The notes beneath the pieces were generated by a model. The model did no database searches and was not told where the DNA came from. It worked only from the letters and a program-made list of their open reading frames with translations. Shown here piece after piece: positions 1 to 37,652 of a DNA stretch of 60,754 nt. The translations under genes and the position numbers were made by a program. How positions within the stretch are numbered: the stretch's first letter is position 1; each line of letters opens with the position of its first letter. The stretch comes from an uncultured Candidatus Saccharibacteria bacterium (GTDB taxonomy: Bacteria > Patescibacteriota > Minisyncoccia > Minisyncoccales > GWA2-46-15): assembly GCA_964437545.1 (NCBI GenBank), contig CAYTHH010000002.1:1-60754 (forward strand), written 5' to 3'.

Positions 1-147
1 TTAAATATCCCATAGGGTCTAAGAACGAGGTCGAAGGTCGCGAGGTCAGTCTCGCGCTTTCCACGCCCACCAAGAATTTAAATATCCCATAGGGTCTAAG
101 AACGAGGTCGAAGGTCGCGAGGTCAGTCTCGCACTTTCCACGCCTAC
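1..147. repeat. 77-bp tandem direct repeat, 2 copies (may continue upstream of the window)
   Basis: TTAAATATCCCATAGGGTCTAAGAACGAGGTCGAAGGTCGCGAGGTCAGTCTCGC.CTTTCCACGCC occurs at 1 and again at 78 with one mismatch before the copies diverge. It contains a 6-bp inverted repeat, CGCGAG-GTCAGT-CTCGCG. Confidence 0.85.
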
Positions 148-898: not shown

Positions 899-1699
899 AT
901 GCCCTCTCGTTGGACAATCAAAGAAGAAAAAAATAAGAAAAAAGAGTTAGTAACACTGTATGTAAAGGAAAATAAAACGATCTTTGAAACGGGAAAAATA
1001 TTAGGAATCAAATACCAAACAGTTTACGATCGTTTAAAAAGATTGGGAATTCCGACTTGCCCGGAAAGAAAACCTAAATTCCGTAATTTCCGCACTGATA
1101 TTAAAATTCCAAATAAATACTCTGGAAAACTGGCTGAATTTGTAGGAATATTGCTTGGCGACGGCCACATATCAAACACTCAAATAGTCATTTATATTAA
1201 TAGTTTAGAAACACCCTATATTAAATACATTGAAAAACTGTTTAAAAAACTTTTCGGTGCCGCATCGCATAAGAGCCACGCCTTATCAAAAAGAGTTCGA
1301 GAATACCATGTAACAGATATTCGCCTTGGCTCAACAGAATTAGTACGATACTTTCTCAAAATGGGATTAGTGAGGAATAAAACTAAATCACAAATTGATA
1401 TTCCTGCTTGGATAAATATTAAACAAAAATACCAATTAGCTTTCCTTCGCGGTTTCTTTGACACAGATGGTTCCGTTTATAAATTAAAATTCGGTACTCA
1501 GATATGTTATAAAAATGCATCTATTCCTCTTTTAAAATCTACGCAGAAAATACTTACCGATTTCGATTACCACCCTTCACAAATCAGTTATCGTTCTTTA
1601 TACTTAACAAGGAAAAAAGATTTGCGCCGATTTTTTAAAGAAGTGGGGCCAGCAAATCAAAAGCACCTTAACAGAGCAAAATTGTTTAAAGTCATCTAA
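899..1699 (+). CDS. double-motif LAGLIDADG homing endonuclease with N-terminal HTH-like region
   Basis: Two LAGLIDADG motifs, EFVGILLGDGH and AFLRGFFDTDGS. The stop codon (1697-1699) directly abuts the first base of tRNA-Tyr. Confidence 0.8.
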   Translation: MPSRWTIKEEKNKKKELVTLYVKENKTIFETGKILGIKYQTVYDRLKRLGIPTCPERKPKFRNFRTDIKIPNKYSGKLAEFVGILLGDGHISNTQIVIYINSLETPYIKYIEKLFKKLFGAASHKSHALSKRVREYHVTDIRLGSTELVRYFLKMGLVRNKTKSQIDIPAWINIKQKYQLAFLRGFFDTDGSVYKLKFGTQICYKNASIPLLKSTQKILTDFDYHPSQISYRSLYLTRKKDLRRFFKEVGPANQKHLNRAKLFKVI

Positions 1700-1785
1700 C
1701 CAGGGGTACTCAAGCGGTCAACGAGAGCAGACTGTAAATCTGCTGGCTAACGCCTTCGTAGGTTCGAATCCTACCCCCTGGACCA
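1700..1785 (+). tRNA. tRNA-Tyr (anticodon GUA), long variable arm, CCA encoded
   Basis: Acceptor CCAGGGG/CCCCTGG, anticodon arm GCAGA-CTGTAAA-TCTGC, long variable arm, T arm GTAGG-TTCGAAT-CCTAC, terminal ACCA. Confidence 0.9.
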
Positions 1786-1792
1786 AGTTTTT

Positions 1793-1822
1793 CAAAAAAT
1801 CGCCAAAAAGGTTGTTTTTGGT
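1793..1822 (+). repeat. partial copy of the cassette 3' module (degenerate hairpin plus T-tract)
   Basis: CAAAAAATCGCCAAAAAGGTTGTTTTTGG resembles CAAAGAATCGCCAAAAAGGCGATTTTTTGG of the array elements. It lies 8 nt after tRNA-Tyr. Confidence 0.5.
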
Positions 1823-1927
1823 TTTGTGTTTCCAAATTATTGAATCATAACGAAGCTATTGATAAAACTAATCCTGTATTATATAATTTTAATAGAATCT
1901 ACCACCACAAGTGCAAAGGAGGCACAC

Positions 1928-2581
1928 ATGTGTAATCTACCGTTTTGGCAAAAGAAGAAAGCAAGAAAAAAAAAGTACAAAGTTCTAAGATATCTGTCGA
2001 GCGCGAAGTGGGGAGCTTCCACTTATCTGAGAGCGGTCAATGGCAAGGTCGTTGAAACTGGGAATTCTATATGGGCAGAAGAGGGCGATGACGTTCGCTT
2101 TGTGGGTATTCCCGACCTATCATGGTATCGTGCCGAAGAGGAACCGACTTATCTGATCAGAGTCACGCTGGCCCTTGAGGTTGAGGGCTGCAAGATCGAA
2201 GTGAAAACTAATGTCCTGATTTTCTTTCGGACTGTCGAGAAACCCTCTTATTGGAAAAGTGACGGCAGCACTTATTGGACTACCAAGTTCGACATGCAAG
2301 AATTGTACGAGAAGGTCGCACTCAGGGAGTTTAAGCACATTGATGATTGGTTGACACATCTTTTCTTAACCGCGGCAAGTACGAATGAAGCAGTTCAGTT
2401 GGCTTTTCGTCGCTATGTAAAGAATGAAAAGCCTGTCCGATTTATACAGGAACTGGCTACTGCTCTGAAAGGCCTCGGATTCTCGGGACAACCATTAAGC
2501 AACATCGTTGCTATCAAGATTACGCCAATGGTTGATACCATGAAAGCCATGGTAACCGTTAAATACGGCCACTGGCGATAA
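1928..2581 (+). CDS. hypothetical protein (217 aa), visibly higher GC than surroundings
   Basis: Strong SD AAGGAGG lies 7 nt before the ATG at 1928, and the upstream part of the ORF-track ORF is AT-rich junk. It is followed by a strong terminator. I recognise no domain. Confidence 0.6.
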   Translation: MCNLPFWQKKKARKKKYKVLRYLSSAKWGASTYLRAVNGKVVETGNSIWAEEGDDVRFVGIPDLSWYRAEEEPTYLIRVTLALEVEGCKIEVKTNVLIFFRTVEKPSYWKSDGSTYWTTKFDMQELYEKVALREFKHIDDWLTHLFLTAASTNEAVQLAFRRYVKNEKPVRFIQELATALKGLGFSGQPLSNIVAIKITPMVDTMKAMVTVKYGHWR

Positions 2582-2588
2582 CGCTATG

Positions 2589-2620
2589 CGGGGAAGGAAA
2601 ACCTTCCCCGTACTGTTTTA
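2589..2620 (+). terminator. rho-independent terminator
   Basis: CGGGGAAGG-AAAA-CCTTCCCCG followed by TACTGTTTT. Confidence 0.7.
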
Positions 2621-2640
2621 ATTGTAGCTAAACAATATTA

Positions 2641-2732
2641 AACAAGTTTTAATGTCGTTCAACCAGGGAAGCCGTTTGTGGATAATAAATTACCGTCTGT
2701 TATTTGAGGCGGTTTTTTGGTAGAGTGAAACA
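2641..2732 (+). repeat. cassette-boundary element b (box plus hairpin/T6/TGGTAGAGT module)
   Basis: AACAAGTTTTAATGTCG box. Then GTTTGTGGATAATAAATTACCGTCTGTTATTTGAGGCGGTTTTTTGGTAGAGTGAAACA, then ATG. Confidence 0.7.
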
Positions 2733-3134
2733 ATGAACAGGGTTAAAATAGTAGGTGTTTATATAGAAAAGGATAATAAAGTTCTAATGGTTCAAGAAAA
2801 AGGCCAATCTTTTGGTTTATGGTCAATTCCATTGGGGCATGTGGATTCGGGAGAGTCACTAAAGAACGCCGCAGTTAGAGAGGCAAAGGAGGAAACCGGT
2901 TATGATGTCAAAATAATTAGGAAATTAGAACAAAAAATAATATCTGGCACAGAATATAAGGGCGGAAAGGGAGATAATGATAAAGAAATAGAGTTAAATT
3001 TCTTTGAAGGAATAATAACCGGGGGGAAGCTAGAAGCCGATAAAGAAGATTTACTTGATGCTAAATGGTTTGATAAAGAAGAGATAAAACAAATATCTCT
3101 TAGGGGTAATTGGTTAAACACATTATTTCAATAA
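2733..3134 (+). CDS. Nudix hydrolase
   Basis: Nudix box GHVDSGESLKNAAVREAKEETGYDV (GX5EX7REUXEEXGU). Confidence 0.85.
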   Translation: MNRVKIVGVYIEKDNKVLMVQEKGQSFGLWSIPLGHVDSGESLKNAAVREAKEETGYDVKIIRKLEQKIISGTEYKGGKGDNDKEIELNFFEGIITGGKLEADKEDLLDAKWFDKEEIKQISLRGNWLNTLFQ

Positions 3135-3253
3135 ACAGGTTCTAACATCCCTCCTTCATCAAGATTACGGACGGGCAAGGCGTCCCATAGGCAGGACAGG
3201 ATTTTTAACTCAAAGAATCGCCAAAAAGGCGATTTTTTGGTAAGATAAAGTAT
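3133..3253 (+). repeat. cassette-boundary element c
   Basis: AAACAGGTTCTAACATCC box overlaps the stop codon. It ends ATCGCC-AAAAA-GGCGAT-TTTTTT-GGTAAGAT-AAAGTAT-ATG. Positions 3133-3225 are identical to 4366-4458. Confidence 0.85.
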
Positions 3254-3850
3254 ATGATAAAAGCGGTAATATTTGACCTTAACGGAATATTTATACAGGG
3301 CCCAAGATTAAGTGATAGATTCAGGGACGTTTTTGGTATTGAGACAAAAGATTTCTTACCCATATTAAAGGAGATAATGACAAAAATAAGAAAGCCAAAT
3401 GCGGGAAGTACTTTCAGTTATTGGAAACCATATCTAGAAAAATGGAATATTAATTTAACGGAGAAACAATTTTTTGATTTTTGGTTCAATGCCGAGAAAG
3501 AAATTCCAGAGTTAGTTGAATTGGCGAAACAAATAAAAAAGATGGGCGTTAAAGTGTTTATTCTATCAAATAACTTTGCCGAAAGAGCTGATTATTACAA
3601 AAAGAATTCTCCATTTCTAACAAAGATTCCTGATAAAATCTATTATTCTTGGCAGACAGGTTTCGTTAAACCAGATCCCCAAGCATTTAAGAATCTACTA
3701 ATTGAGAATAATTTTAAACCCGAGGAATGTATTTATTTTGATGATTTGGAGGAAAATATTAAAGTGGCAAATGCCTTAGAGATAAAAGCTTTTCTCTATA
3801 AAAATGTCATTTGTTTAGAAAAAACATTGAAAGATAATCGAGTAATCTAA
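3254..3850 (+). CDS. HAD-superfamily hydrolase
   Basis: N-terminal IKAVIFDLNG (motif I-like), ILSNN, and YFDDLEENI near the C-terminus. Typical HAD layout. Confidence 0.65.
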   Translation: MIKAVIFDLNGIFIQGPRLSDRFRDVFGIETKDFLPILKEIMTKIRKPNAGSTFSYWKPYLEKWNINLTEKQFFDFWFNAEKEIPELVELAKQIKKMGVKVFILSNNFAERADYYKKNSPFLTKIPDKIYYSWQTGFVKPDPQAFKNLLIENNFKPEECIYFDDLEENIKVANALEIKAFLYKNVICLEKTLKDNRVI

Positions 3851-3856
3851 TTTACT

Positions 3857-3940
3857 AAACAAATTCTAATATCGTCCCGTAAGGAGGATTAAGATTTTCA
3901 AAGAATCGCCAAAAAGGCGATTTTTTGGTAAGATAAAAAT
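3857..3940 (+). repeat. cassette-boundary element d
   Basis: AAACAAATTCTAATATCGTCCC box, then ATCGCCAAAAAGGCGATTTTTTGGTAAGATAAAAAT, then ATG. Confidence 0.8.
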
Positions 3941-4366
3941 ATGAAAAAGCAGAAATTATATCCAGAACCAACGGTCGGCGCTTTAATCTTCAATAAAGAA
4001 GGAAAGATTTTTCTAATGAAATCTCCGAAATGGCGTAATCTGTATTCATTAACCGGAGGACATATAGAACTTGGAGAAACCGCCGAGCAAGCTCTTACAC
4101 GGGAGGTGTGGGAAGAAACAGGGTTAAAGATTAATAATATAGAATTTTCTGGTCTGCAAGAATATGTTTTCGGAAAAGAATTCTACAGGCCGAAACATTT
4201 CATCTTCTTAGACTTTAATTGCAAAACGAATAACCAAACAGTGAAACTTGATGGTAGAGAGGGAACAAGTTATGTTTGGGTGACTATCAACGAAGCATTA
4301 AAGCTGCCGCTTAATCCGTATACTAGAACGACAATCCTGAGGTATAAACGAAAGCATCGCCGTTAA
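3941..4366 (+). CDS. Nudix hydrolase
   Basis: Nudix box GGHIELGETAEQALTREVWEETGLKI. Confidence 0.85.
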   Translation: MKKQKLYPEPTVGALIFNKEGKIFLMKSPKWRNLYSLTGGHIELGETAEQALTREVWEETGLKINNIEFSGLQEYVFGKEFYRPKHFIFLDFNCKTNNQTVKLDGREGTSYVWVTINEALKLPLNPYTRTTILRYKRKHRR

Positions 4367-4500
4367 AACAGGTTCTAACATCCCTCCTTCATCAAGATTA
4401 CGGACGGGCAAGGCGTCCCATAGGCAGGACAGGATTTTTAACTCAAAGAATCGCCAAAGAGGCGGTTTTTTGGTAAGATAGAATATATTTACACAAAGTT
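4366..4500 (+). repeat. cassette-boundary element e (near-identical to element c)
   Basis: The first 93 nt are identical to 3133-3225. The 3' module is ATCGCCAAAGAGGCGGTTTTTTGGTAAGATAGAA, followed by a 22-nt leader. Confidence 0.85.
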
Positions 4501-4782
4501 ATGGACTTGAGCCTTTTTACAAAATATTATGGATTTGATTGGCTAGCTGTTCTGATAGGTGTCATTGGTATGTGGAAACTAGGAAGCAAGAAACGAAGTG
4601 GTTTTATATTCTACATGATTGCCGCCATGGCGGGTTTTGTATTTGCTTTGTTAGCTCATACCATTGCTTATATGATAGTTAATGTTATTACTTTCTTTCT
4701 GCAATTGAGGGGTTTCCTTAAATGGCGTAAAGATGATCTAGGGAAGGTGGCTCATCAAACAGGTTCTAACATCGTCCCATAG
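4501..4782 (+). CDS. small integral membrane protein (93 aa)
   Basis: Several hydrophobic helices. The last 9 codons (HQTGSNIVP) and the TAG stop are supplied by the conserved box itself. Confidence 0.55.
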   Translation: MDLSLFTKYYGFDWLAVLIGVIGMWKLGSKKRSGFIFYMIAAMAGFVFALLAHTIAYMIVNVITFFLQLRGFLKWRKDDLGKVAHQTGSNIVP

Positions 4783-4809
4783 CCTAGGCAGGACGTATTA
4801 TTTTAACTC
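4757..4809 (+). repeat. cassette-boundary element f (box only, 3' module replaced)
   Basis: AAACAGGTTCTAACATCGTCCCATAGCCTAGGCAGGAC...TTTTAACTC. The first 35 nt match element l (8095). Confidence 0.8.
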
Positions 4810-4854
4810 GATTTTAACCCAATATTATTCTCATACTGGGGTAGGTTTTTAGAT

Positions 4855-4883
4855 TTGACTAATTTAACTTAATGTGATATAAT
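4855..4883 (+). promoter_or_regulatory. near-consensus sigma70-type promoter with extended -10
   Basis: TTGACT (4855-4860), 17-nt spacer, TGaTATAAT (-10 at 4878-4883). Confidence 0.65.
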
Positions 4884-4934
4884 ATAGGCATCGTGGTTGT
4901 TTATCGTGCCACTATTCTATCTGAGGAGGAACAA

Positions 4935-5348
4935 ATGTTCATTGTAACGGTTGATTTCAAGGGAACCCTGGCAAATAGTGATACCAAACAATTTCTTGCC
5001 GGGATGAGAACGGCTGCCTTCGGACCAATTCCTGCAGAAACCCAGAAAGCGAATGACTTGGATTTCAATGCCGACTGCATCGCAATCCATCTCAACCTCG
5101 GTCCCAAGACTATTCTGGGTCGAATTCTGAAGCCGATAACTTCAGGAAATTTCCCTGATTTCCTGGCGGCGATCTGTTTCTCGGCAAAGCCAACGTACAT
5201 TCCGCACGACGCGGATCTGATCTCAGCCATCTCAACGGCGGCGGGAAAGTTTATGGAATCATGTGGGTTGCTTTCGCAGGGAACGAAAACCGCAGCCTGG
5301 GCCATTCCATTTGTCTTGGGAAAATGGACGGCAACCACCGCCAAATGA
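4935..5348 (+). CDS. hypothetical protein (137 aa), clearly GC-richer than the genome
   Basis: SD GAGGAGG lies 6 nt before the ATG at 4935, with its own promoter upstream and a plus-strand terminator downstream. The composition is more protein-like than the antisense ORF 4901..5407. Confidence 0.6.
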   Translation: MFIVTVDFKGTLANSDTKQFLAGMRTAAFGPIPAETQKANDLDFNADCIAIHLNLGPKTILGRILKPITSGNFPDFLAAICFSAKPTYIPHDADLISAISTAAGKFMESCGLLSQGTKTAAWAIPFVLGKWTATTAK

Positions 5349-5368
5349 CCAGCGAGGTTAGTAGAACA

Positions 5369-5400
5369 AAACGCACACCGAAACATGGCGTGCGTTTTCA
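5369..5400 (+). terminator. rho-independent terminator
   Basis: ACGCACACC-GAAACAT-GGCGTGCGT followed by TTTTCATTT. Confidence 0.7.
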
Positions 5401-5417
5401 TTTCCAAGCTTCAATAA

Positions 5418-5554
5418 AAACAGGTTCTAACATCGTCGCCTAGGCGGAGGAGCTAAGTTTGTGGATCATACAAATTACCGTCTATTATTTAAGGCGATTT
5501 TTTGGTAGAATAGAATAAGGGTCTAGATAATTTGTTAATAAAAATATAATTACT
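5418..5554 (+). repeat. cassette-boundary element g
   Basis: AAACAGGTTCTAACATCGTCGCCTAGGCGGAGGAGCTAAGTTTGTGGATCATACAAATTACCGTCTATTATTTAAGGCGATTTTTTGGTAGAAT. About 90 nt are shared with element h. Confidence 0.85.
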
Positions 5555-5821
5555 ATGATACTAAAAATTTTATTAGCCATAGTAGTAGTCTTATTAGGGT
5601 TGATGGTAGTATTTCGGAAGAAGATACGAAAAATTACCATAAATAAACCTTTATTTATATTAGGAATTTTATTAGCTTTAGCAGGTGCTTTCTTAATGTG
5701 GAATGGTCATATTTTAGGAGAAAATACTACAGGTATCGCAACTGTTATAGGTATTGTTGGGATAGGATTAATAGCTACATCATCAGTATCAGGTAAATCC
5801 AAAAAAACTCCAAATCAATAA
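5555..5821 (+). CDS. small membrane protein (88 aa)
   Basis: Three hydrophobic segments. Only plausible ORF in this unit. Confidence 0.5.
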   Translation: MILKILLAIVVVLLGLMVVFRKKIRKITINKPLFILGILLALAGAFLMWNGHILGENTTGIATVIGIVGIGLIATSSVSGKSKKTPNQ

Positions 5822-5844
5822 ATGATCATCAATTAGCTTTTATC

Positions 5845-5972
5845 AAACAGGTTCTAACCCATTCAATGCGATTCAGGGTCTATGACATCGTCGCCTAGGC
5901 GGAGGAGCTAAGTTTGTGGATCATACAAATTACCGTCTATTATTTAAGGCGATTTTTTGGTAGAGTGAAAAT
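5845..5972 (+). repeat. cassette-boundary element h (split or duplicated box)
   Basis: AAACAGGTTCTAAC, then CCATTCAATGCGATT, then CAGGGTCTATGACATCGTCGCC..., then the same sequence as element g. It ends TTTTTTGGTAGAGTGAAAAT-ATG. Confidence 0.85.
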
Positions 5973-6707
5973 ATGAAAAAAGATACTGTTAAAAAAATTG
6001 TTAAAGATAAATATAAGAAAATAGCGATTAGCGGTTCTTCTTGTGGATGCAGTTGTAATAATGCAAAGACTATTTCAAAAAACATCGGTTATTCTGAAAA
6101 AGAGTTAAAAATAGTTGGAGAAGCGAATCTAGGCCTTGGTTGCGGGAATCCATTAGCATTTGGAAAAATAAAAGAAGGAGATACAGTTTTAGATTTGGGG
6201 TCTGGGGCTGGGATCGACGCTATTTTAGCTGCCAAAAAGGTTGGAATTATGGGGAAAGTTATCGGTATAGATATGACCGAAGAAATGGTAAAAAGAGCCA
6301 GAGCAAACGCTAAAAAGAATAATATAACAAACGTAGAATTTCTTTTAGGAGAAATAGAAAATTTGCCTCTAGGGGATAATTCTGTAGACACGATAATTAC
6401 CAATTGCGTTATAAACCTCTCTCCTGATAAATTTAAAACCTTTAGTGAAGCATATAGAGTTCTTAAACCAGGAGGAAAAATTTATCTTTCGGATATTGTT
6501 TTATTAGAAGAACTTTCAGAAGATCAAAAGAATGACAAGGATCTATTATCTGGTTGTGTCGCAGGGGCCTTATTAAAAGAGGATTATCTGAATAAAATCA
6601 AGAATGCAGGATTTAAGATTCGTATTCTATATGAGAATAAAAGAATCAGCAAAGAACAGTATAATGGAATTGCTTTAGAAAGCTTAATGGTTGAATTAAT
6701 AAAATAA
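5973..6707 (+). CDS. class I SAM-dependent methyltransferase, arsenite methyltransferase (ArsM)-like
   Basis: SAM motif [11 protein letters not shown], then [13 protein letters not shown] and [10 protein letters not shown]. There is an N-terminal Cys cluster SSCGCSC, as in ArsM-type enzymes. Confidence 0.7.
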
Positions 6708-6718
6708 AAAAACTAGCT

Positions 6719-6893
6719 AAAACAGGTTCTAACATCGTCCCATACTGTAGACAGGGCAGGATTAAGTTTGAAAAGACGACAAGTATAGAATAAATTAGAA
6801 CCGAAAGATCGCCCTTATGTCTTTTAGGCCAGGTGATTTTTTGATATAATAGAGGAATAAAAATAAAGGAACAATCCAATAATAAAATGTTTT
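6719..6893 (+). repeat. cassette-boundary element i
   Basis: AAAACAGGTTCTAACATCGTCCCATACTGTAGACAGGGCAGGATTAAGTTTG, then an imperfect hairpin, T6, TGATATAAT and a leader of about 50 nt. Confidence 0.75.
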
Positions 6894-7109
6894 ATGAGTA
6901 AAAAAGAGCCACAAAATTGTTGGGAATTTTGGAACTGTAATATTAGGGTTAGAAAAAAGTGTCCAGCATATATAAACAATCTAGGAAAGGATTGTTGGAT
7001 GATAGCAGGATCAATTACTAAAGATCCTGCCTGCCCGAAATTAAAACACCAGTTTAGAAATTGCTGGCAATGTGACTGGTTTAAAAAATTAAAACCCGAT
7101 TTTAAATAA
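6894..7109 (+). CDS. small Cys/Trp-rich protein, two-CW-domain-like (71 aa)
   Basis: Two CW-containing motifs, NCWEFWNC and NCWQCDWF, and 7 Cys in total. My recollection of the two-CW family name is not certain. Confidence 0.5.
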   Translation: MSKKEPQNCWEFWNCNIRVRKKCPAYINNLGKDCWMIAGSITKDPACPKLKHQFRNCWQCDWFKKLKPDFK

Positions 7110-7135
7110 ATCTTCAAATAGTTTAAGGAAGAACA

Positions 7136-7256
7136 AAACAAGCTCTAATATCGTCTAGCCAAATGGGAAGCTAATAAGGTTGCCAAAAAAGCGGTTTTTT
7201 GGTAAGATGAGAATATATTCGTTAGAGTTTTTTAAATTTGGATTCCGTAATAAAAC
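7136..7256 (+). repeat. cassette-boundary element j
   Basis: AAACAAGCTCTAATATCGTC box, then GCCAAAAAAGCGGTTTTTTGGTAAGATGAGAA and a 48-nt leader. Confidence 0.7.
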
Positions 7257-7706
7257 ATGAGAAAAATTGTCATTTGTGGTTCAATGGCTTTTAGCCAAGC
7301 GATGATTAATACTGAAAAAGAGCTCAAAGCTTATGGCTTTGAAGTTGTTTTACCAGATGATATTGAGCAATATATTGATGGAAAGTGGGAGAAAAAACTT
7401 GCTTCAGGCTGGAACTCTCAAGTAGAAGGCGCTAAGAGAAAAATTGAAAACAATCTTATTAAAAGGCACTACGAAGAAATAAAAAATGCTGATGCTATTC
7501 TGGTTATCAATCAAAATAAGAAAGGAATTAAAAACTATATAGGTGGCAACACTTTCTTAGAAATGAGTTTTGCCTTCGTACTTAATAAAAACATCTTTGT
7601 TTTAAATAGGCTTCCGGAAGAGCTGACTCTAATTTACCAAGAATTAGTAGCTATGCAACCAATAGTTCTTGAGGGTGATTTAACCAAGATTACTGATAAT
7701 TTTTAA
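7257..7706 (+). CDS. hypothetical protein, possibly nucleoside 2-deoxyribosyltransferase-like fold
   Basis: N-terminal KIVICGSMAF resembles the Rossmann-like start of the Rcl/NDT family. Weak, motif-level only. Confidence 0.3.
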   Translation: MRKIVICGSMAFSQAMINTEKELKAYGFEVVLPDDIEQYIDGKWEKKLASGWNSQVEGAKRKIENNLIKRHYEEIKNADAILVINQNKKGIKNYIGGNTFLEMSFAFVLNKNIFVLNRLPEELTLIYQELVAMQPIVLEGDLTKITDNF

Positions 7707-7709
7707 GCC

Positions 7710-7747
7710 AAATAAGTTCTAACATTGTCGCCTAGGCGGAGCTTACC
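7710..7747 (+). repeat. cassette-boundary element k (box only)
   Basis: AAATAAGTTCTAACATTGTCGCCTAGGCGGAGC. It is followed by a TTGACA-17-TATCTT promoter-like sequence instead of the usual 3' module. Confidence 0.7.
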
Positions 7748-7817
7748 TTTGACAAATACCACATTTAGTGGTATCTTGTGTTTAGATTATTCGATCACAA
7801 ATCCTGAGGAGGATAAA

Positions 7818-8045
7818 ATGAAAGCTTCGGAACTTCTTGAACTCTCGGAGGAAGAACTTGAGAGATTGAGAGATAAAAAAACCATGCCATTAGGGATATA
7901 CGATCATTATGTAGAGGGACTGAAGTTTTTTGCAAAGAATATGGGCATAACCTTAGAAAAGGCTATTGAGCTTACATTTGCCAGCAATGATGAGCACAGT
8001 GTTCATTATATAATGGCGTATCAACATTTAAGGGGGAAGCGTTAA
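7818..8045 (+). CDS. hypothetical small helical protein (75 aa)
   Basis: SD GAGGAGG lies 6 nt before the ATG at 7818. The ORF-track N-terminal extension runs through the repeat box and is rejected. Confidence 0.55.
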   Translation: MKASELLELSEEELERLRDKKTMPLGIYDHYVEGLKFFAKNMGITLEKAIELTFASNDEHSVHYIMAYQHLRGKR

Positions 8046-8048
8046 CAG

Positions 8049-8089
8049 ACCGCCGAGAATATTATAATATTCCGGCGGTTGTTGTTTTT
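8049..8089 (+). terminator. rho-independent terminator
   Basis: ACCGCCGAGAATATT-ATAATATTCCGGCGGT followed by TGTTGTTTTT. Confidence 0.7.
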
Positions 8090-8094
8090 ATATC

Positions 8095-8181
8095 AAACAG
8101 GTTCTAACATCGTCCCATAGCCTAGGCAAGATTAAGCTCAAAAGATCGCTTTTTAAGCGGTTTTTTGGTAAGATAAAATAT
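8095..8181 (+). repeat. cassette-boundary element l
   Basis: AAACAGGTTCTAACATCGTCCCATAGCCTAGGCAAGATTAAGCTC, then ATCGC-TTTTTAA-GCGGT-TTTTTT-GGTAAGAT-AAAATAT-ATG. Confidence 0.85.
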
Positions 8182-8379
8182 ATGGAAGAAGAAATTCTAA
8201 AGAAAATTGAAGCCCAAGATAAAAAGCTAGAAGAGATTTATCATTCTATTGAGAAAATGAGGAAGTATTTTCTCTGGACACTCATTATAACGGTGGCTTT
8301 GATTGTTCTACCGATAATTGGTTTAATATTTGCTATTCCTAAATTCCTGGATATTTACAGTAATGCTCTTATTTTTTAG
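8182..8379 (+). CDS. small membrane protein (65 aa)
   Basis: N-terminal charged helix, then one long TM segment (LWTLIITVALIVLPIIGLIFAIP). Confidence 0.5.
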   Translation: MEEEILKKIEAQDKKLEEIYHSIEKMRKYFLWTLIITVALIVLPIIGLIFAIPKFLDIYSNALIF

Positions 8380-8430
8380 ACCATGTCAGTTGATTAAAAA
8401 TACCCTAAATTAAGAACTATTCTATATAAA

Positions 8431-8455
8431 AATAAAGTTCTAATGTCGATCCGAG
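8431..8455 (+). repeat. cassette-boundary element m (degenerate last box)
   Basis: AATAAAGTTCTAATGTCGATCC. Confidence 0.55.
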
Positions 8456-8468
8456 GCTAATCCAAATA

Positions 8469-8499
8469 TTGACAAGCCCTTGTGATCAGAGTATATAAT
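8469..8499 (+). promoter_or_regulatory. sigma70-type promoter
   Basis: TTGACA (8469-8474), 17-nt spacer, TATATA (8492-8497), overlapping TATAAT. Confidence 0.6.
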
Positions 8500-8606
8500 A
8501 AATATCATATGAAAATCCAATCCATTAAAAAATATTATGCTTTTAAGACTCTCTCATCCGCAGGGCTGGGTTTTTAAAGATAAATAAAAATTTTAAAGAC
8601 AAACTT

Positions 8607-8630
8607 AGCCTCCTGCTGGAGGTTTTTTTA
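8607..8630 (+). terminator. short intrinsic terminator / attenuator inside the leader of 8818..9750
   Basis: AGCCTCC-TGCT-GGAGGTT followed by TTTTTT. Confidence 0.55.
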
Positions 8631-8817
8631 ATTCGATGAACAAACAAATCAAAAAACTGAATAATTCTAACTTTAATTATTACTACTACGGCATCATTTT
8701 CCAGAGGCCAGTTTCGGAATGCCGAAGTAGTCACAGCTCCTAAAAACATTTCGACTTCTAAAACTGGTCTCGCGGAGATCAGTTTTAGTTCATTGATATA
8801 GTTAAAAGGAGAATAAA

Positions 8818-9750
8818 ATGATAAACGAAAACGTCAATCTAAGTGAGTGTAACGGAATCATGGTTACTCTCGACAGCGCCCGCTATGACACAGCAGTGAG
8901 CGCTCAAATGCAAAACCTCAGTAAAATAGGGGAATTGCATCGGGGATACACTCTGTCTACATACACCCCGGCAGCCCACACCTCCATTTTTCTTGGACAC
9001 CTTCCGTCAACAAGAATAGATGGAAAATTCCCATACTACCACGAACCGGCAAAACAGCTATGGAGAATTACTACTGGGCCAGCCCGCGACGCCAATAAGG
9101 GTTGCGGCATCCTGTTTCATGGAAACAATGTCATCGAGGGCTACCGCAGAATGAATACTTATGTCCTCGGCATTGGCGGAGTCTCCCAGTTTTCAAGTAA
9201 AAGCTTCTTAAGAGAAGCCTATCCTTGGACTAACTTTATCTATTATGGTCCGGATATGAATGAAGAGCCTTTAGCGCCAAGAAATCCAGAAACATTTCCG
9301 CTAAATCATGTAGAAGAAATAGCTGAAACGCTAAGGGGAAAAGAACAATGGTTTTTGTTCATCAATTGTCCAGAACCCCACTATCCGTATGACTGGGGAA
9401 AAGGAATTGATGACAAAATCATGAATATCTTCCCACAACTGGCCAAAACCCTTAATCTGCGATCCTTGACCGCTCCAATTGAGGCGTTTGAAGCATTAAA
9501 ACCGTTTGCTGATGACTTATGGCAAATGCAGGAAAAAGGCTTAAGGGCAATTGACTTGAAACTGGAATTTCTTTTCCGCAACCTTAAACAAATCTCAGAA
9601 CGACCGATCTATGCTGTGGTCTGCGGGGATCATGGAGAAAACTTCGGAGATGGAAACTCTGAAGCCGGAGGGTCTCCGCTCGGCCTTTATGGCCATATGC
9701 ACCCATCTAGAGAATGCACACAAGTGCCAATGTGGATGGGAATGCTCTAA
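8818..9750 (+). CDS. alkaline phosphatase superfamily (sulfatase / nucleotide pyrophosphatase-like) metalloenzyme
   Basis: MVTLDSARYD, TPAAHTSIFLG and VVCGDHGENFGD...GHMHP fit the metal-ligand/nucleophile layout of this superfamily. SD AAAGGAG. GC is higher than in its neighbours. Confidence 0.5.
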   Translation: MINENVNLSECNGIMVTLDSARYDTAVSAQMQNLSKIGELHRGYTLSTYTPAAHTSIFLGHLPSTRIDGKFPYYHEPAKQLWRITTGPARDANKGCGILFHGNNVIEGYRRMNTYVLGIGGVSQFSSKSFLREAYPWTNFIYYGPDMNEEPLAPRNPETFPLNHVEEIAETLRGKEQWFLFINCPEPHYPYDWGKGIDDKIMNIFPQLAKTLNLRSLTAPIEAFEALKPFADDLWQMQEKGLRAIDLKLEFLFRNLKQISERPIYAVVCGDHGENFGDGNSEAGGSPLGLYGHMHPSRECTQVPMWMGML

Positions 9751-18780: not shown

Positions 18781-18900
18781 CTTTAGGCTCTTTTTCAAAA
18801 TCTTGAAAATCAGCGAATTTTGAGCTCTCTTTCAAAACATTGAAAGTCAGCGAATTTTGAGCTCTCTTTCAAAACATTGAAAGTCAGCGAATTTTGAGCT
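18781..18900. repeat. 37-bp tandem repeat upstream of lysS (2 perfect, 1 truncated, 1 degenerate copy)
   Basis: CAGCGAATTTTGAGCTCTCTTTCAAAACATTGAAAGT at 18811, 18848 and 18885. Each unit has the inverted repeat CTTTCAA-AACA-TTGAAAG. Confidence 0.9.
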
Positions 18901-30054: not shown

Positions 30055-30069
30055 TCTAGTTTTGTTAAA

Positions 30070-37349: not shown

Positions 37350-37652
37350 ATGAGATTTAAATCTAAAAAACCAAGGGAAAATATAGCTAATTTAGCCAGA
37401 ATCTTAGGATATAGGCTATTAAAGGGGACTGATCATGAGTTTAATTTAGTCAGGCCTTTGGGCAGAGATTATCCAAGATTTCATGTTTATCTGGAAGAAA
37501 ATGATGATTTTCTTTATTTTAATCTGCATCTTGACCAAAAAAGACCTTCTTATTCAAAACAAACAATGCACAGTGGCGAATATGATGGTGATTTAGTTTT
37601 AGGCGAACAACAGAGAATCCAAAAGACTTTGGAAAAGCTAATTACTCTTTAG
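37350..37652 (+). CDS. hypothetical protein (100 aa)
   Basis: Clean ORF, no recognisable motif. Confidence 0.5.
   Translation: MRFKSKKPRENIANLARILGYRLLKGTDHEFNLVRPLGRDYPRFHVYLEENDDFLYFNLHLDQKRPSYSKQTMHSGEYDGDLVLGEQQRIQKTLEKLITL

What the first reader, a model, noticed from the sequence alone, without database searches (positions are those of the whole stretch)
2641..8455. Array of about 11 single-gene cassettes bounded by a conserved box: integron/CALIN-like but non-canonical
A conserved box occurs twelve times on the plus strand, starting at 2641, 3134, 3858, 4367, 4758, 5419, 5846, 6721, 7137, 7711, 8096 and 8431. The consensus is AAACAGGTTCTAACATCGTC(C/G)C. Weaker variants are AACAAGTTTTAATGTCG, ACAAATTCTAATATCGTC, ACAAGCTCTAATATCGTC, ATAAGTTCTAACATTGTC and TAAAGTTCTAATGTCG.

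Each box sits 0-15 nt after the stop codon of a short plus-strand ORF. The box-to-box units are 335-875 bp and carry one ORF each. The functions are unrelated: two different Nudix hydrolases, a HAD hydrolase, an ArsM-like methyltransferase, a two-CW Cys-rich peptide, three small membrane proteins and several unknowns.

Most elements end in a second module: a 5-6 bp hairpin (ATCGCC-AAAAA-GGCGAT), T6, then TGGTAAGAT or TGGTAGAGT. The ATG follows 6-7 nt later in five units. The array starts right after tRNA-Tyr, where a partial 3' module lies at 1793-1822.

This is the architecture of an integron cassette array or a CALIN (a cluster of attC sites with no integrase). It differs in three ways:
- The box only approximates an attC R'' site (TTCTAAC versus RYYYAAC), and I could not find a matching GTTRRRY R' site.
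- Cassettes appear to bring their own terminator and leaderless promoter, rather than depending on a Pc promoter.
- No integrase lies in this part of the window. The only tyrosine recombinase is Xer-like and about 30 kb away.

If real, this would be a cassette-capture system with a different site type in a CPR-like genome.
Basis: partly seen in the sequence, partly recalled or inferred. Interest (0 to 1): 0.82.

Follow-up and report, generated by a model that had tools for sequence, protein, structure and literature searches.

The report
Gene cassette array beside a tRNA
Twelve small accessory genes sit in a row after a tRNA gene in a tiny-genome (CPR-type) bacterium; each ends in the same ~33-base junction, which matches the docking site of a serine integrase common in these bacteria, so this looks like an integron-like gene-capture system built on a different enzyme.

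Summary
Twelve co-oriented boxes (2640-8463) separate twelve single-ORF units directly downstream of tRNA-Tyr, and no box occurs elsewhere in the 60 kb.

The box is not an attC. It has no inverted R'/L' partner and no consistent fold, there is no IntI, and it matches no Rfam family.

It has two parts: a 20-nt core, AAACAGGTTCTAACRTCGTC, and a ~14-nt tail that mimics the 3' end of a tRNA.

The same box forms single-strand arrays in hundreds of CPR contigs. These arrays lie downstream of, and co-oriented with, tRNA-Gln, tRNA-Asn, tRNA-Tyr or tRNA-His.

In the window's own population, contigs from at least four samples lack cassettes 6-11 (window 4791-8091). Both breakpoints lie inside boxes.

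A very large CPR family of large serine recombinases (LSRs) has its gene end overlapping either a tRNA 3' end (attL) or the box core (attP-like). Two integrated LSR elements end in a box (attR). The GGTTC motif sits 5 bp further out in the core than in the tRNA, which is the known attP/attB geometry.

Best reading: integrase-less cassettes that carry an LSR attP arm and accumulate in tandem at a tRNA. This resembles SCC composite islands or an integron in function, but it is not an integron. Mobilisation of the cassettes by the LSR is inferred, not shown.

The parts
1700..1785 (+). tRNA-Tyr(GTA), the anchor of the array. Under the model it is the attB-type left arm (T-arm plus acceptor 3' end).
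   Evidence: ARAGORN and Rfam. In 21 tRNA-anchored loci, 57 of 57 boxes lie downstream of and co-oriented with the tRNA.
1786..1927 (+). First spacer: a degenerate hairpin/T-run module (1780-1819), then a sigma70-like promoter and Shine-Dalgarno site for cassette 1.
   Evidence: family D6: 83% identical to the spacer at 3886-3925. Sequence read.
1928..2581 (+). Cassette 1 ORF (217 aa, unknown function, about 45% GC), with its own terminator at 2589-2620.
2640..2672 (+). Box 1, degenerate: AAACAAGTTTTAATGTCGTT + CAACCAGGGAAGC.
   Evidence: Not found by the profile.
2733..3134 (+). Cassette 2 ORF, Nudix hydrolase. Leaderless-type start 6 nt after the -10 element.
3133..3197 (+). Box 2. The core is split from its Tyr-type tail (GTCCCATAGGCAGGAC) by a 32-nt insert.
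   Evidence: (family D5).
3254..3850 (+). Cassette 3 ORF, HAD hydrolase.
3857..3888 (+). Box 3: AAACAAATTCTAATATCGTC + CCGTAAGGAGGA.
3941..4366 (+). Cassette 4 ORF, second Nudix hydrolase.
4366..4430 (+). Box 4. The 123-nt element 4366-4488 that contains it is 97% identical to the box 2 element 3133-3255.
   Evidence: family D5.
4501..4782 (+). Cassette 5 ORF (93 aa, PnuC/NMN-transporter-like). It reads 25 nt into box 5.
4757..4794 (+). Box 5, a perfect core plus the tail CCATAGCCTAGGCAGGAC. It is the left breakpoint of the population deletion.
4791..8091 (+). Block of cassettes 6-11, present or absent in the natural population. The removed length is 3338 bp, counting one copy of the shared 37 nt.
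   Evidence: L138 equals window 2234-4790 joined to 8092-8766. L139 equals 3902-4790 joined to 8092-9489. L125, L128 and L136 show the same junction, all at 100% identity.
4935..5348 (+). Cassette 6 ORF (137 aa, 50% GC), with its own promoter, Shine-Dalgarno site and terminator.
5418..5453 (+). Box 6, core plus the Asn-type tail GCCTAGGCGGAGGAGC.
5555..5821 (+). Cassette 7 ORF (88-aa membrane protein). Homologous cassettes at 78-94% identity occur in other CPR genomes with different spacers.
5845..5908 (+). Box 7. The core half AAACAGGTTCTAAC, a 26-nt insert, then ACATCGTC plus the tail. From 5885 on it is 100% identical to 5430-5509.
   Evidence: (family D8).
5973..6707 (+). Cassette 8 ORF, SAM-dependent methyltransferase.
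6720..6761 (+). Box 8. This is the only window element with an inverted partner (GACGAC...TTAGAACC at about 6776-6803).
6894..7109 (+). Cassette 9 ORF, two-CW-domain peptide.
7136..7171 (+). Box 9: AAACAAGCTCTAATATCGTC + TAGCCAAATGGGAAGC.
7257..7706 (+). Cassette 10 ORF (149 aa, unknown function).
7710..7742 (+). Box 10: AAATAAGTTCTAACATTGTC + GCCTAGGCGGAGC.
7818..8045 (+). Cassette 11 ORF (75 aa), with its own promoter, Shine-Dalgarno site and terminator.
8095..8131 (+). Box 11, a perfect core. With the 3 nt before it, it shares a 37-nt identity with box 5 (8092-8128 = 4754-4790). It is the right breakpoint of the population deletion, and many contigs break here.
8182..8379 (+). Cassette 12 ORF (65 aa, one transmembrane segment). 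A homologous cassette occurs in L045.
8430..8463 (+). Box 12, degenerate, at the distal end of the array.
   Evidence: Not found by the profile.
2695..2729 (+). Hairpin + T6 + GGTAGAGT module (terminator plus extended -10). Equivalent copies lie at 3206-3246, 3894-3934, 4439-4479, 5480-5514, 5935-5969, 6819-6853, 7168-7208 and 8134-8174.
   Evidence: (families D2, D4), (the hairpin is the only consistent fold).

Best explanation
The region is a tRNA-anchored tandem array of twelve integrase-less gene cassettes. Each unit runs from a spacer, usually with a terminator hairpin and its own promoter, through one ORF, to a ~33-nt junction.

The junction has two parts:
- A ~14-nt tail that copies the T-stem and acceptor 3' end of the target tRNA, and which contains or adjoins the crossover.

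Autonomous elements of this family are 6-9 kb and carry the LSR, replication genes and restriction-modification genes. They integrate at the 3' end of tRNA-Asn or tRNA-Gln. This leaves tRNA + P' on one side (attL) and core + tail + host DNA on the other (attR, which is a box).

The single-gene units in the window have the same ends but no recombinase. They would be inserted, excised and reshuffled in trans at the tRNA or at existing boxes. This would build an integron-like reservoir of individually expressed accessory genes, analogous to ccr-less SCC elements stacked at rlmH.

Shown:
- The anatomy of the array.
- Its wide distribution.
- The tRNA anchoring.
- The match between tail type and tRNA type.
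- Box-delimited gain or loss in the population.
- The overlap of the LSR gene end with either the core or the tRNA.
- Boxes at the far end of integrated LSR elements.

Inferred:
- That the LSR acts on the small cassettes.
- The position of the crossover.
- The reaction that stacks the units.
For: 1. The box is real and local to the array.

   - Profile hits: 295 in the window plus the first 122 loci (120 genome, 2 viral), and 247 in the metagenome loci.
   - All boxes are on one strand in 65 of 67 and in 58 of 58 multi-box sequences.
   - Median spacing is 733 bp.
   - 85% of boxes follow a same-strand ORF.

3. The arrays are anchored at tRNAs.
   - In 21 loci with tRNA-Gln, tRNA-Asn or tRNA-Tyr, 57 of 57 boxes are downstream and co-oriented.
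   - This replicates in the metagenome set: Gln 17/17, Asn 8/9, His 11/11.
   - The anchors sit in conserved core synteny with no integrase upstream: DnaX or FtsX before tRNA-Gln, DnaG-RpoD before tRNA-Asn.

4. The tails track the anchor tRNA.
   - Asn-anchored arrays: 17 of 22 tails are GGAGY.
   - Gln-anchored arrays: 12 of 21 are SCARC.
   - Tyr-anchored arrays: 5 of 13 are AGGA(C).
   - L117 shares CCCGGAGT with its tRNA.
   - The same spacer families follow tRNA ends and box tails.

5. A population variant lacks cassettes 6-11, with the junction inside the shared box, in at least four samples. It co-occurs with the long form in JGI 3300005645.

6. The link to LSRs.
   - Bona fide LSRs with Resolvase + Recombinase + Zn_ribbon_recom domains.
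   - The gene ends in antisense tRNA-Asn or tRNA-Gly (L060, L076) or reads antisense through the core as ..DDVRTC.. (L155, L207).
   - Among 120 cluster representatives of a family of more than 5,700 members, 48 read through a T-arm and 11 read strictly through the core.
   - L275 and L276 show a perfect core + tail abutting the LSR.
   - L278, L279, L280 and L281 show an intact tRNA-Asn or tRNA-Gln followed by the LSR, at the same DnaX and RpoD loci that hold arrays elsewhere.
   - Integrated LSR elements in L060 and L279 end in a perfect box whose tail matches the anchor tRNA.

7. The geometry fits serine integrases. GGTTC to GGAGC is 28 nt in the box and 23 nt in tRNA-Asn (read). This is the 5-bp outward shift of the distal motif in attP relative to attB described for serine integrases (PMC3783163).
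Against: - No LSR lies in the window or in the 10 kb upstream of it.
- Only 6 of 242 box loci (5 full-length genes and one weak fragment in L157) carry an LSR within the fetched stretch.
- Canonical serine integrases recombine only attP x attB. Stacking units therefore needs attP x attL or attP x attR, or multimer integration, which is known only for permissive enzymes such as Ccr (my own knowledge).
- No conserved P' half-site follows the tail, and no dyad symmetry is visible.
- Homologous copies of cassette 7 in different genomes share only the stretch from the -10 element to the core, while the tail, spacer and hairpin are genome-specific. Gene conversion or homologous exchange is therefore also at work.
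- The deletion junction lies within 37 nt of perfect identity, so it cannot distinguish site-specific from homologous recombination.
- The predicted circle junction of cassettes 6-11 was not found in assembled metagenomes.
- One integrated LSR element (L281) has no recognisable box at its far end.
Confidence: 0.58

Rival explanations
1. Box and LSR are independent. The core would be the site of another, still unidentified recombinase (Xer-type or other). LSR elements would merely use the tRNA-like tail of boxes as secondary attB sites.
For: - LSRs are rare next to arrays.
- Every CPR genome has a Xer; the window's copy is at 37642-38595.
- Boxes outnumber target tRNAs, so LSR elements landing beside boxes could simply reflect the number of targets.
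Against: - The core has attP-type rather than attB-type spacing of the GGTTC motif, so it is a poor attB.
- LSR elements integrated at a genuine tRNA still end in a core-bearing box at the far end (L060, L279).
- No tyrosine recombinase occurs among the ORFs of 242 box loci.
- The box has no dyad typical of Xer or Cre-type sites.
Confidence: 0.14
2. No dedicated recombinase acts on the small units. The arrays would be built and reshuffled by homologous recombination and gene conversion between the conserved junction and promoter repeats after DNA uptake. The boxes would be relics that persist as portable homology.
For: - The deletion junction lies in 37 nt of identity.
- Spacers are homogenised within a genome, while the ORFs are shared between genomes with breaks at conserved motifs.
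- A 5-kb segmental duplication sits inside one array (L022/L106).
Against: - A 20-nt core that is invariant across very distant CPR lineages, and in both datasets, calls for a sequence-specific reader.
- The strict single-strand orientation and tRNA anchoring are not expected from homologous recombination alone.
- The longer repeats in the window (123 nt and 80 nt) were not the ones used for the observed deletion.
Confidence: 0.12
3. The units are not mobile mini-cassettes. They would be the decayed remains of many full-length LSR elements that integrated in tandem and were each reduced to one gene.
For: - Full-length LSR units have the same ends as cassettes and lie next to them (L060).
- Some boxes are degenerate (2641, 8431).
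Against: - Twelve consecutive remnants, each trimmed to exactly promoter + one ORF + core, is implausible.
- The same small cassette recurs in different genomes and arrays. Cassette 7 has 471 homologues, some 80-94% identical across lineages.
- Arrays of ten or more small units are common.
Confidence: 0.08
4. RNA-level element. The box would be a tRNA-like 3'-UTR motif used for processing or stability of the upstream mRNA.
For: - About 88% of boxes lie between a stop codon and the next terminator-like hairpin, so they would be transcribed.
- The tail resembles a tRNA acceptor end.
Against: - There is no covariation or stable local fold and no Rfam match.
- 12% of boxes, including three in the window, lie after the gene's own terminator.
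- The T-stem cannot pair.
- The breakpoints and the LSR overlap are properties of the DNA.
Confidence: 0.04
5. Canonical integron cassette array or CALIN, with divergent attC sites recombined by an IntI elsewhere in the genome.
For: - The architecture is array-like.
- TTCTAAC resembles the R'' consensus RYYYAAC.
- One element (6720-6803) pairs GGTTCTAA with TTAGAACC.
Against: - Eight of nine folded top-strand elements lack an R'/L' partner and an attC-like fold.
- Inverted core copies are rare across 162 boxes.
- No IntI or other tyrosine recombinase lies near 242 loci.
- The window's only tyrosine recombinase scores as a generic Xer (integron-integrase model 94 bits against a cut-off of 265).
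- The cassettes carry their own promoters.
Confidence: 0.03

Closest known systems
SCC / pseudo-SCC composite islands of staphylococci (Ccr large serine recombinases at the 3' end of rlmH/orfX). From my own knowledge.
   Same: - The recombinase is a serine recombinase of the large family.
- Integration is at the 3' end of a conserved housekeeping gene.
- Units are stacked in tandem.
- Each junction keeps a direct repeat of the integration site.
- Recombinase-less units sit beside autonomous ones.
   Different: - The anchor is a tRNA gene.
- The units are single genes of 0.3-1.3 kb, each with its own promoter.
- There are ten or more units per array and several arrays per genome.
- The junction carries a 20-nt invariant arm plus a tRNA mimic.
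- The hosts are CPR bacteria.
- Orthology to Ccr was not tested.
Integron cassette arrays and CALINs (IntI tyrosine recombinase, folded attC sites).
   Same: - Co-oriented arrays of single-ORF cassettes of unrelated, accessory function.
- Each cassette ends in a recombination-type site.
- Junction repeats are homogeneous within an array, as in sedentary chromosomal integrons.
- Blocks of cassettes are lost or gained at the sites.
   Different: - There is no attC palindrome or fold.
- There is no IntI.
- Cassettes bring their own promoter and terminator instead of relying on Pc.
- The array is anchored at a tRNA 3' end.
- The candidate enzyme is a serine recombinase, not a tyrosine recombinase.
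Serine-integrase prophages and integrative elements with attP/attB logic (A118/LI, Bxb1, phiC31; PMC3783163).
   Same: - The LSR gene lies beside, and overlaps, its attP.
- The hybrid sites attL (tRNA + P') and attR (core + host DNA) are both found.
- The distal motif is shifted 5 bp between the attP-like and attB-like arms.
   Different: - Canonical systems give one element per site and do not stack.
- Here the attP arm is also carried by dozens of recombinase-less single-gene units.
tRNA-targeted genomic islands formed by tandem accretion, for example tycheposons of Prochlorococcus (bioRxiv 10.1101/2020.12.28.424599, seen in the listing but not read; otherwise my own knowledge).
   Same: - Islands of flexible genes lie next to particular tRNA genes in streamlined genomes.
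- Partial tRNA 3' repeats sit at the junctions.
- Many cargo units lack an integrase.
   Different: - Tycheposons use tyrosine recombinases and are multi-gene elements.
- They have no 20-nt conserved arm and no arrays of single-gene units with their own promoters.
pdif modules of Acinetobacter plasmids (Xer-dependent). From my own knowledge.
   Same: Small gene modules are bounded by short conserved recombination sites and served by a recombinase encoded elsewhere.
   Different: - pdif sites are dyad-symmetric Xer sites in alternating orientation on plasmids.
- Here the sites are asymmetric, all direct, chromosomal and tRNA-anchored.

Membership tests
Integron / CALIN | The attC site has inverted core sites R'' (RYYYAAC) and R' (GTTRRRY) that pair in a folded single strand. 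| tested here: not met
   Both strands of the window elements were folded (nine top strands, six bottom strands). Only the terminator hairpin is consistent, and only the 6720 element pairs the box with an inverted copy. Across 162 strong boxes, inverted core copies are rare, five at about +80.
Integron / CALIN | L''/L' pairing with extrahelical bases that mark the recombined strand. | tested here: not met
   No covarying or complementary partner exists for the region after the core.
Integron / CALIN | An IntI integron integrase (needed for a complete integron, not for a CALIN). | tested here: not met
   The only tyrosine recombinase in the window scores as a generic Xer (integron-integrase model 94 bits against a cut-off of 265). 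No Xer/IntI-like ORF occurs in 242 box-bearing loci.
Integron / CALIN | Mostly promoterless cassettes expressed from a common Pc promoter. | tested here: not met
   Nine of twelve units carry a T-run + extended -10 module and three carry sigma70-like promoters. This rests on sequence only; no transcript data were available.
Integron / CALIN | A co-oriented array of single-ORF units, each ending in a recombination site. | tested here: met
Integron / CALIN | A significant hit to the attC covariance model (IntegronFinder, HattCI). | not testable with these tools
   That model is not available here. Rfam gives no match.
Large-serine-recombinase attachment sites | The recombinase gene lies adjacent to its attP. 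| tested here: met
   Met in related loci, not in the window. The LSR ORF reads antisense through core + tail in L155, L207, L275 and L276, and in at least 11 of 120 family representatives.
Large-serine-recombinase attachment sites | Hybrid sites attL (host arm + P') and attR (P + host arm) flank the integrated element. | tested here: met
   attL, an intact tRNA-Asn or tRNA-Gln followed by the LSR end, is seen in L278-L281; L060 has a tRNA-Asn 3' half that ARAGORN does not call. attR, a perfect box with a matching tail, is seen at the far end in L060 and L279. It is absent in L281.
Large-serine-recombinase attachment sites | The distal (zinc-ribbon) motif lies 5 bp further from the crossover in attP than in attB. 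| tested here: met
   The motif AGGTTC lies 5 nt further from the ..GGAGC end in the core than in tRNA-Asn (sequences). The rule is taken from PMC3783163. This is a sequence comparison only.
Large-serine-recombinase attachment sites | Imperfect dyad of P and P' around a central dinucleotide. | tested here: inconclusive
   No conserved motif was found in the 30 nt after the tail in 262 distinct junctions. The P' arm of LSR-bearing elements is constrained by coding.
Large-serine-recombinase attachment sites | A cognate LSR is encoded in the same genome as the array. | tested here: inconclusive
   None in the 60.7-kb window or 10 kb upstream; the rest of the genome is not available. CAYVDD010000001.1 holds both boxes (L004, L020) and an LSR at its tRNA-Asn.
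Large-serine-recombinase attachment sites | Recombination of the sites by the enzyme. | not testable with these tools
   This needs biochemistry or a heterologous assay.
SCC-like composite islands | Tandem units at the 3' end of a conserved gene, a direct repeat at each junction, and recombinase-less units beside autonomous ones. | tested here: met
   Window array. L060 shows an LSR unit followed by cassettes. LSR elements and arrays share the DnaX-tRNA-Gln and RpoD-tRNA-Asn loci.
SCC-like composite islands | The recombinase is orthologous to CcrA, CcrB or CcrC. | not tested
   Only the Pfam domain architecture was checked.
tRNA-targeting islands with a tyrosine integrase (including tycheposons) | A tyrosine integrase at the island border, and tRNA 3' fragments as direct repeats. 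| tested here: not met
   The repeats contain only a ~14-nt tRNA-like tail joined to a non-tRNA core. There is no tyrosine integrase.

The most novel reading that the evidence does not exclude
CPR bacteria carry a serine-recombinase counterpart of the integron.
- A lineage-wide system in which single genes, each packaged with its own promoter and a 20-nt attP arm, are captured, stacked and shed at the 3' ends of a few tRNA genes.
- The enzyme would be a large serine recombinase supplied in trans by 6-9-kb helper elements.
- This would be a main route of accessory-gene flux in these minimal genomes.
Probability: 0.4. Interest if true: 0.92.

Novelty: new variant of a known kind. Interest (0 to 1): 0.8.

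Why it matters
CPR/Patescibacteria have tiny genomes with few recognised mobile elements, and how they exchange accessory genes is an open question.

This analysis shows the following:
- A conserved, easily searchable 33-nt junction marks hundreds of arrays of individually expressed small genes at a handful of tRNA loci across the radiation.
- At least one array is polymorphic in nature, with breakpoints exactly at the junctions.
- A concrete candidate enzyme family exists.

If the link to the serine recombinase holds:
- It would be the first cassette-array system of integron type that runs on a serine rather than a tyrosine recombinase.
- It would use a compact, tRNA-directed att site, which may also be of interest as a genome-engineering tool.

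Even if the link fails, the box is a practical marker for the flexible gene pool of CPR genomes and a frequent cause of assembly breaks.

Tried and rejected
- **attC-like folding.** Both strands of the window elements were folded (nine top, six bottom). There is no consistent structure beyond the terminator hairpin.
- **Local hairpin in the box.** Mutual information within the box gives no paired columns.
- **Known RNA families.** Rfam at the gathering threshold and at permissive thresholds, on the window and on nine loci, finds tRNAs only.
- **Box as a true tRNA 3' half.** Rejected: the T-stem cannot pair, and the loop would be 12 nt.
- **Cultured phages and plasmids.** There is no meaningful match to the box.
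- **Enriched neighbouring protein.** Clustering 1,174 ORFs gave none.
- **Tyrosine recombinase near boxes.** None found.
- **LAGLIDADG endonuclease (899-1699) as driver.**
  - Homologues are absent from the genome loci and present in one metagenome locus.
  - I treat it as an unrelated homing gene.
- **Small GIY-YIG genes.** They recur next to anchor tRNAs and boxes but are too rare to explain the arrays. Left as a side observation.
- **Breakpoint histogram from all-vs-all BLAST.** Uninformative, because alignments run on through the conserved box.
- **Second core copies or a conserved P' motif.** Only a minority class of double boxes about 60 nt apart was found.
- **Circle junction of cassettes 6-11.** Not found in metagenome contigs.
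- **LSR relatives in IMG/VR viral contigs.** Only one distant hit.
- **Viral contigs L001 and L002.** Both place a box in AT-rich, CPR-like DNA next to GC-rich phage DNA. In L001 the phage DNA starts at the box tail; in L002 it starts about 370 nt upstream. They may be chimeric assemblies and were not used as evidence.
- **Literature.** Nine full-text searches found no description of this motif or of cassette arrays in CPR. The library is incomplete.

Full report
**1. Observation**

- Nine lie within three mismatches of AAACAGGTTCTAACATCGTC, against none expected in shuffles, and the motif occurs nowhere else in the 60,754 bases.
- A profile built from 140 non-identical copies from other genomes recovers ten of them.
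- The first and last boxes (2641, 8431) are degenerate and are accepted on position only.

Each box-to-box unit holds one + strand ORF. The stated functions hold: two Nudix hydrolases, a HAD hydrolase, a SAM methyltransferase, a PnuC-like fragment and a two-CW peptide.

The hairpin + T6 + TGGTARRRT module occurs nine times in the array. The only other such run followed closely by a start codon is at 30060. Five units have the ATG 6-7 nt after the -10 element.

Corrections:
- The box lies -25 to +70 nt from the stop codon.
- Three GC-richer cassettes (1, 6, 11) have their own promoter, Shine-Dalgarno site and terminator, with the box after that terminator.
- Three boxes are split by 26-32-nt inserts.

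The rest of the window is housekeeping DNA: aminoacyl-tRNA synthetases, SecA, the Mur/Fts genes, Hsp70 and one generic Xer at 37642-38595.

**2. The box is longer than reported and very widespread**

Nearly all are Patescibacteria/CPR MAGs, including complete chromosomes, plus a few MAGs of other phyla.

Aligning the hits shows the structure of the box:
- An invariant 20-nt core.
- Then CC, about seven variable bases, and a conserved end, most often CGGAGC.

The profile finds 295 copies in the window plus the first 122 loci (120 genome, 2 viral).
- In 65 of 67 multi-copy sequences all copies are on one strand, with up to ten per 8 kb.
- Median spacing is 733 bp.
- 85% of boxes are preceded within 150 nt by a same-strand ORF of at least 60 aa, against 47% in a mirror control.

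An independent scan of metagenome contigs gave another 120 loci with 247 boxes, and 58 of 58 multi-box loci were single-stranded.

Several genomes have more than one array, for example OY969803.1 at 32-40 kb and at 312-320 kb.

**3. It is not an attC and not a known RNA**

- Single-strand folding of the window elements (nine top strands, six bottom strands) gives only the terminator hairpin. One element (6720) pairs GGTTCTAA with a downstream TTAGAACC.
- Inverted core copies are rare across 162 strong boxes.
- No pair of columns in the box covaries.
- Rfam finds nothing at the gathering or at permissive thresholds.
- No tyrosine recombinase lies among 1,174 ORFs of the genome loci or 2,445 ORFs of the metagenome loci.
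- The window's Xer is not an IntI.

**4. The arrays are anchored at tRNA genes and the box tail is a tRNA 3'-end mimic**

tRNA-Gln (12 loci), tRNA-Asn (8 loci) and tRNA-Tyr (2 loci plus the window) are heavily over-represented next to boxes.
- In these 21 sequences, all 57 boxes lie downstream of and co-oriented with the tRNA.
- The metagenome set replicates this: Gln 17/17, Asn 8/9, and a further anchor, His, at 11/11.
- Upstream of the anchors are core genes in conserved synteny, with no integrase: DnaX or FtsX before tRNA-Gln, DnaG-RpoD before tRNA-Asn, and a YbaK-like gene, tRNA-Ile and tRNA-Ala before tRNA-Tyr.

The last 14 nt of the box have the layout T-stem 3' strand + acceptor 3' strand + discriminator + C. 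Their type follows the anchor:
- Asn-anchored: 17 of 22 are GGAGY.
- Gln-anchored: 12 of 21 are SCARC.
- Tyr-anchored: 5 of 13 are AGGA(C).
- In L117 the tail shares CCCGGAGT with its tRNA.

The same spacer families follow tRNA 3' ends and box tails. In the window, 1780-1819 after tRNA-Tyr is 83% identical to the spacer after box 3 (family D6). A box is therefore positionally equivalent to the end of the tRNA.

**5. Gain and loss at the boxes in nature**

Contigs encoding proteins identical to those of the window come from about 20 assemblies.
- Most carry the same twelve cassettes.
- L138 (JGI 3300005645), L139 (ERZ27248936), L125/L136 (ERZ27248939) and L128 (ERZ27248885) join window 4790 directly to 8092. 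Both flanks are 100% identical.
- This removes cassettes 6-11.
- The junction lies in the 37 nt shared by boxes 5 and 11.
- Long and short forms co-occur in one sample (L137 and L138).
- Many contigs break at 8065-8159.

It does not by itself separate site-specific from homologous recombination.

**6. A candidate enzyme**

Five box loci contain a full-length large serine recombinase (Resolvase + Recombinase + Zn_ribbon_recom), and a sixth (L157) has a weak fragment. In every full-length case the 3' end of the gene converges on the tRNA end or on the box:
- In L060 and L076 the last codons (..LLRG*, ..VLSG*) are the reverse complement of a tRNA-Asn or tRNA-Gly acceptor end.
- In L155 and L207 the ORF runs antisense through tail and core (..MLHGLDDVRTCLQ..).

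The family is very large, with more than 5,700 proteins at E < 1e-40, named from Patescibacteria where named at all. Among its 120 best cluster representatives:
- 43 stop at ..LLRG.
- 48 continue with ..DSN.., which is an antisense T-arm.
- At least 11 continue with D(D/N)(V/I)RT, which is the antisense core.

Fetched examples confirm both states:
- L275 and L276 have a perfect core + Asn-type tail abutting the LSR.
- L278, L280 and L281 have an intact tRNA-Asn, and L279 an intact tRNA-Gln, followed at once by the LSR. These sit at exactly the RpoD and DnaX loci where arrays lie in other genomes.

The elements are 6-9 kb and carry primase or helicase genes, DUF5659, HTH regulators and restriction-modification genes.

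Two integrated elements end at their far side in a perfect box whose tail matches the anchor tRNA:
- L060: after the HicAB genes, followed by an ordinary cassette.
- L279: box tail CCACGACCCGCAG, beside tRNA-Gln (..CCCCGCAGC), followed by core genes.

A third element, L281, has no recognisable box at its far end.

The geometry also fits. The motif AGGTTC is 28 nt from the end of the tail in the box and 23 nt from the end of tRNA-Asn. In the serine-integrase model of Rutherford et al., the zinc-ribbon motif of attB lies 5 bp closer to the centre than in attP (PMC3783163).

**7. Model**

I read the core as the P arm of the LSR attP, the tRNA T-arm as the B arm, and the tail as the region that holds or adjoins the crossover.
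- An integrated unit is then tRNA | P'...genes...core + tail | host DNA.
- The window is tRNA-Tyr followed by twelve such units without a recombinase.
- Internal junctions (core + tail + next spacer) are formally attP-like.

Stacking needs a reaction that canonical serine integrases avoid (attP x attL or attP x attR), or integration of multimers. This is the weakest step and is inferred. Permissive LSRs such as the staphylococcal Ccr enzymes do build such composite arrays (my own knowledge).

Homologous processes clearly act as well.
- Copies of cassette 7 in four genomes share only the stretch from the -10 element to GTTCTAAC, while the tail, spacer and hairpin are specific to each genome and uniform within it.
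- One array contains a 5-kb segmental duplication.

**8. Rivals**

- The core could serve another, unknown recombinase, with LSR elements only exploiting the tRNA-like tails. The attP-type spacing of the core and the boxes at the far end of tRNA-integrated LSR elements argue against this.
- Pure homologous shuffling does not explain a 20-nt core that is invariant across the radiation, nor the strict polarity.
- Decay of full-length elements does not explain recurrent identical small cassettes.
- An RNA role lacks structure or covariation, and it conflicts with boxes placed after terminators.
- A canonical integron fails its defining tests.

**9. Comparison and novelty**

Functionally the array works like an integron or a CALIN: a polar stack of single, unrelated accessory genes with junction sites, whose blocks come and go. 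It is not a member of that family.
- It is closest in mechanism to serine-integrase elements.
- It is closest in architecture to SCC/pseudo-SCC composite islands.
- It differs from both in being tRNA-anchored and built of single genes with their own promoters.

Nine full-text searches found no description of the motif, of CPR cassette arrays, or of this LSR family's att site. The library is incomplete.

I rate it a new variant of a known kind, with high interest.

**10. Caveats**

- The loci are 8-kb chunks or short contigs, so absence of an LSR nearby is weak evidence.
- Taxon labels are those of the records, and some non-CPR labels may reflect mis-binning or chance 20-mer matches.
- No LSR is known for the window's own genome.
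- The position of the crossover and the P' determinants are unresolved.
- The predicted circle junction was not found in assemblies.

Noticed in passing
window 1-147: Two tandem copies, 97% identical, of a 77-nt unit (TTAAATATCCCATAGGGTCTAAGAACGAGGTCGAAGG...) lie at the very start of the window, upstream of a type IV pilin-like gene (180-713). The window may cut a longer array (family D11).
   Followed up: no
window 899-1699: A free-standing double-motif LAGLIDADG endonuclease gene with an N-terminal HTH fills the gap between tRNA-Ala and tRNA-Tyr and ends one base before tRNA-Tyr. In L111 the two tRNAs are 6 nt apart, so the gene is an insertion. Another LAGLIDADG gene sits beside the anchor tRNA-Gln in L183.
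   Followed up: partly
L024 2700-3790 (Zixibacteria chromosome OY970208.1): Three identical tandem copies of a 91-aa GIY-YIG (YhbQ-like) gene lie directly after tRNA-Met. Each copy is followed by a partial copy of the tRNA, from the D-arm to the 3' end. This is a separate single-gene, tRNA-targeted tandem insertion.
   Followed up: partly
L044 4538-4909; L089 398-697; L107 4425-4715; L111 4763-5239; L119 3589-3846; L175, L187, L204, L239, L240; L281 11719-11982: Small GIY-YIG genes recur immediately beside anchor tRNAs or directly after boxes, in 11 of about 250 loci in addition to L024. They may be homing genes that use the same sites.
   Followed up: partly
L002 4697-4830; L066 about 7160-7300 (- strand); L090 3143-3290 and after 6615; L012; L110: A conserved spacer family of about 130 nt (AGGCTAGTGAG..GTTCGAG.GACCGAAACGCCTCATATTTTGAAA..GGTTCGAGAAA..CCGTCTAGAACATCGAAC..) follows both tRNA-Asn or tRNA-Gln ends and box tails. 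It looks structured but has no Rfam match.
   Followed up: partly
L026 5311/5370, 6269/6333, 7159/7215; L041 407/466, 546/605; L069 1000/1059; L018, L042: Double boxes: a second core copy lies 56-64 nt after the first, with a conserved linker, like an empty mini-cassette.
   Followed up: partly
L001 14690-14728; L002 4290-4700: In both IMG/VR contigs that contain the box, AT-rich CPR-like DNA holding the box is joined to 50-57% GC phage DNA (terminase, portal and capsid genes in L001). In L001 the phage DNA starts at the box tail; in L002 it starts about 370 nt upstream of the box. This is either a prophage at or near a box or a chimeric assembly.
   Followed up: partly
window 18787-18900: A short tandem repeat with a 37-nt offset varies in copy number between population contigs. 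L125 aligns in two pieces that overlap there.
   Followed up: no
L022 3033-8000 and L106 1494-6461 (same contig, CAYZSL010000005.1): A 5-kb stretch of a cassette array is duplicated at 99.8% identity, 6.5 kb further along the same contig.
   Followed up: no
L024 2266-2285; L096; L097 3464: In Zixibacteria and Terriglobales MAGs the box sits inside a longer conserved non-coding element, with flanks shared on both sides and a second core-like motif at +88. Its tail is of another type (CCRTAAGGCACCC). The context there was not resolved.
   Followed up: no
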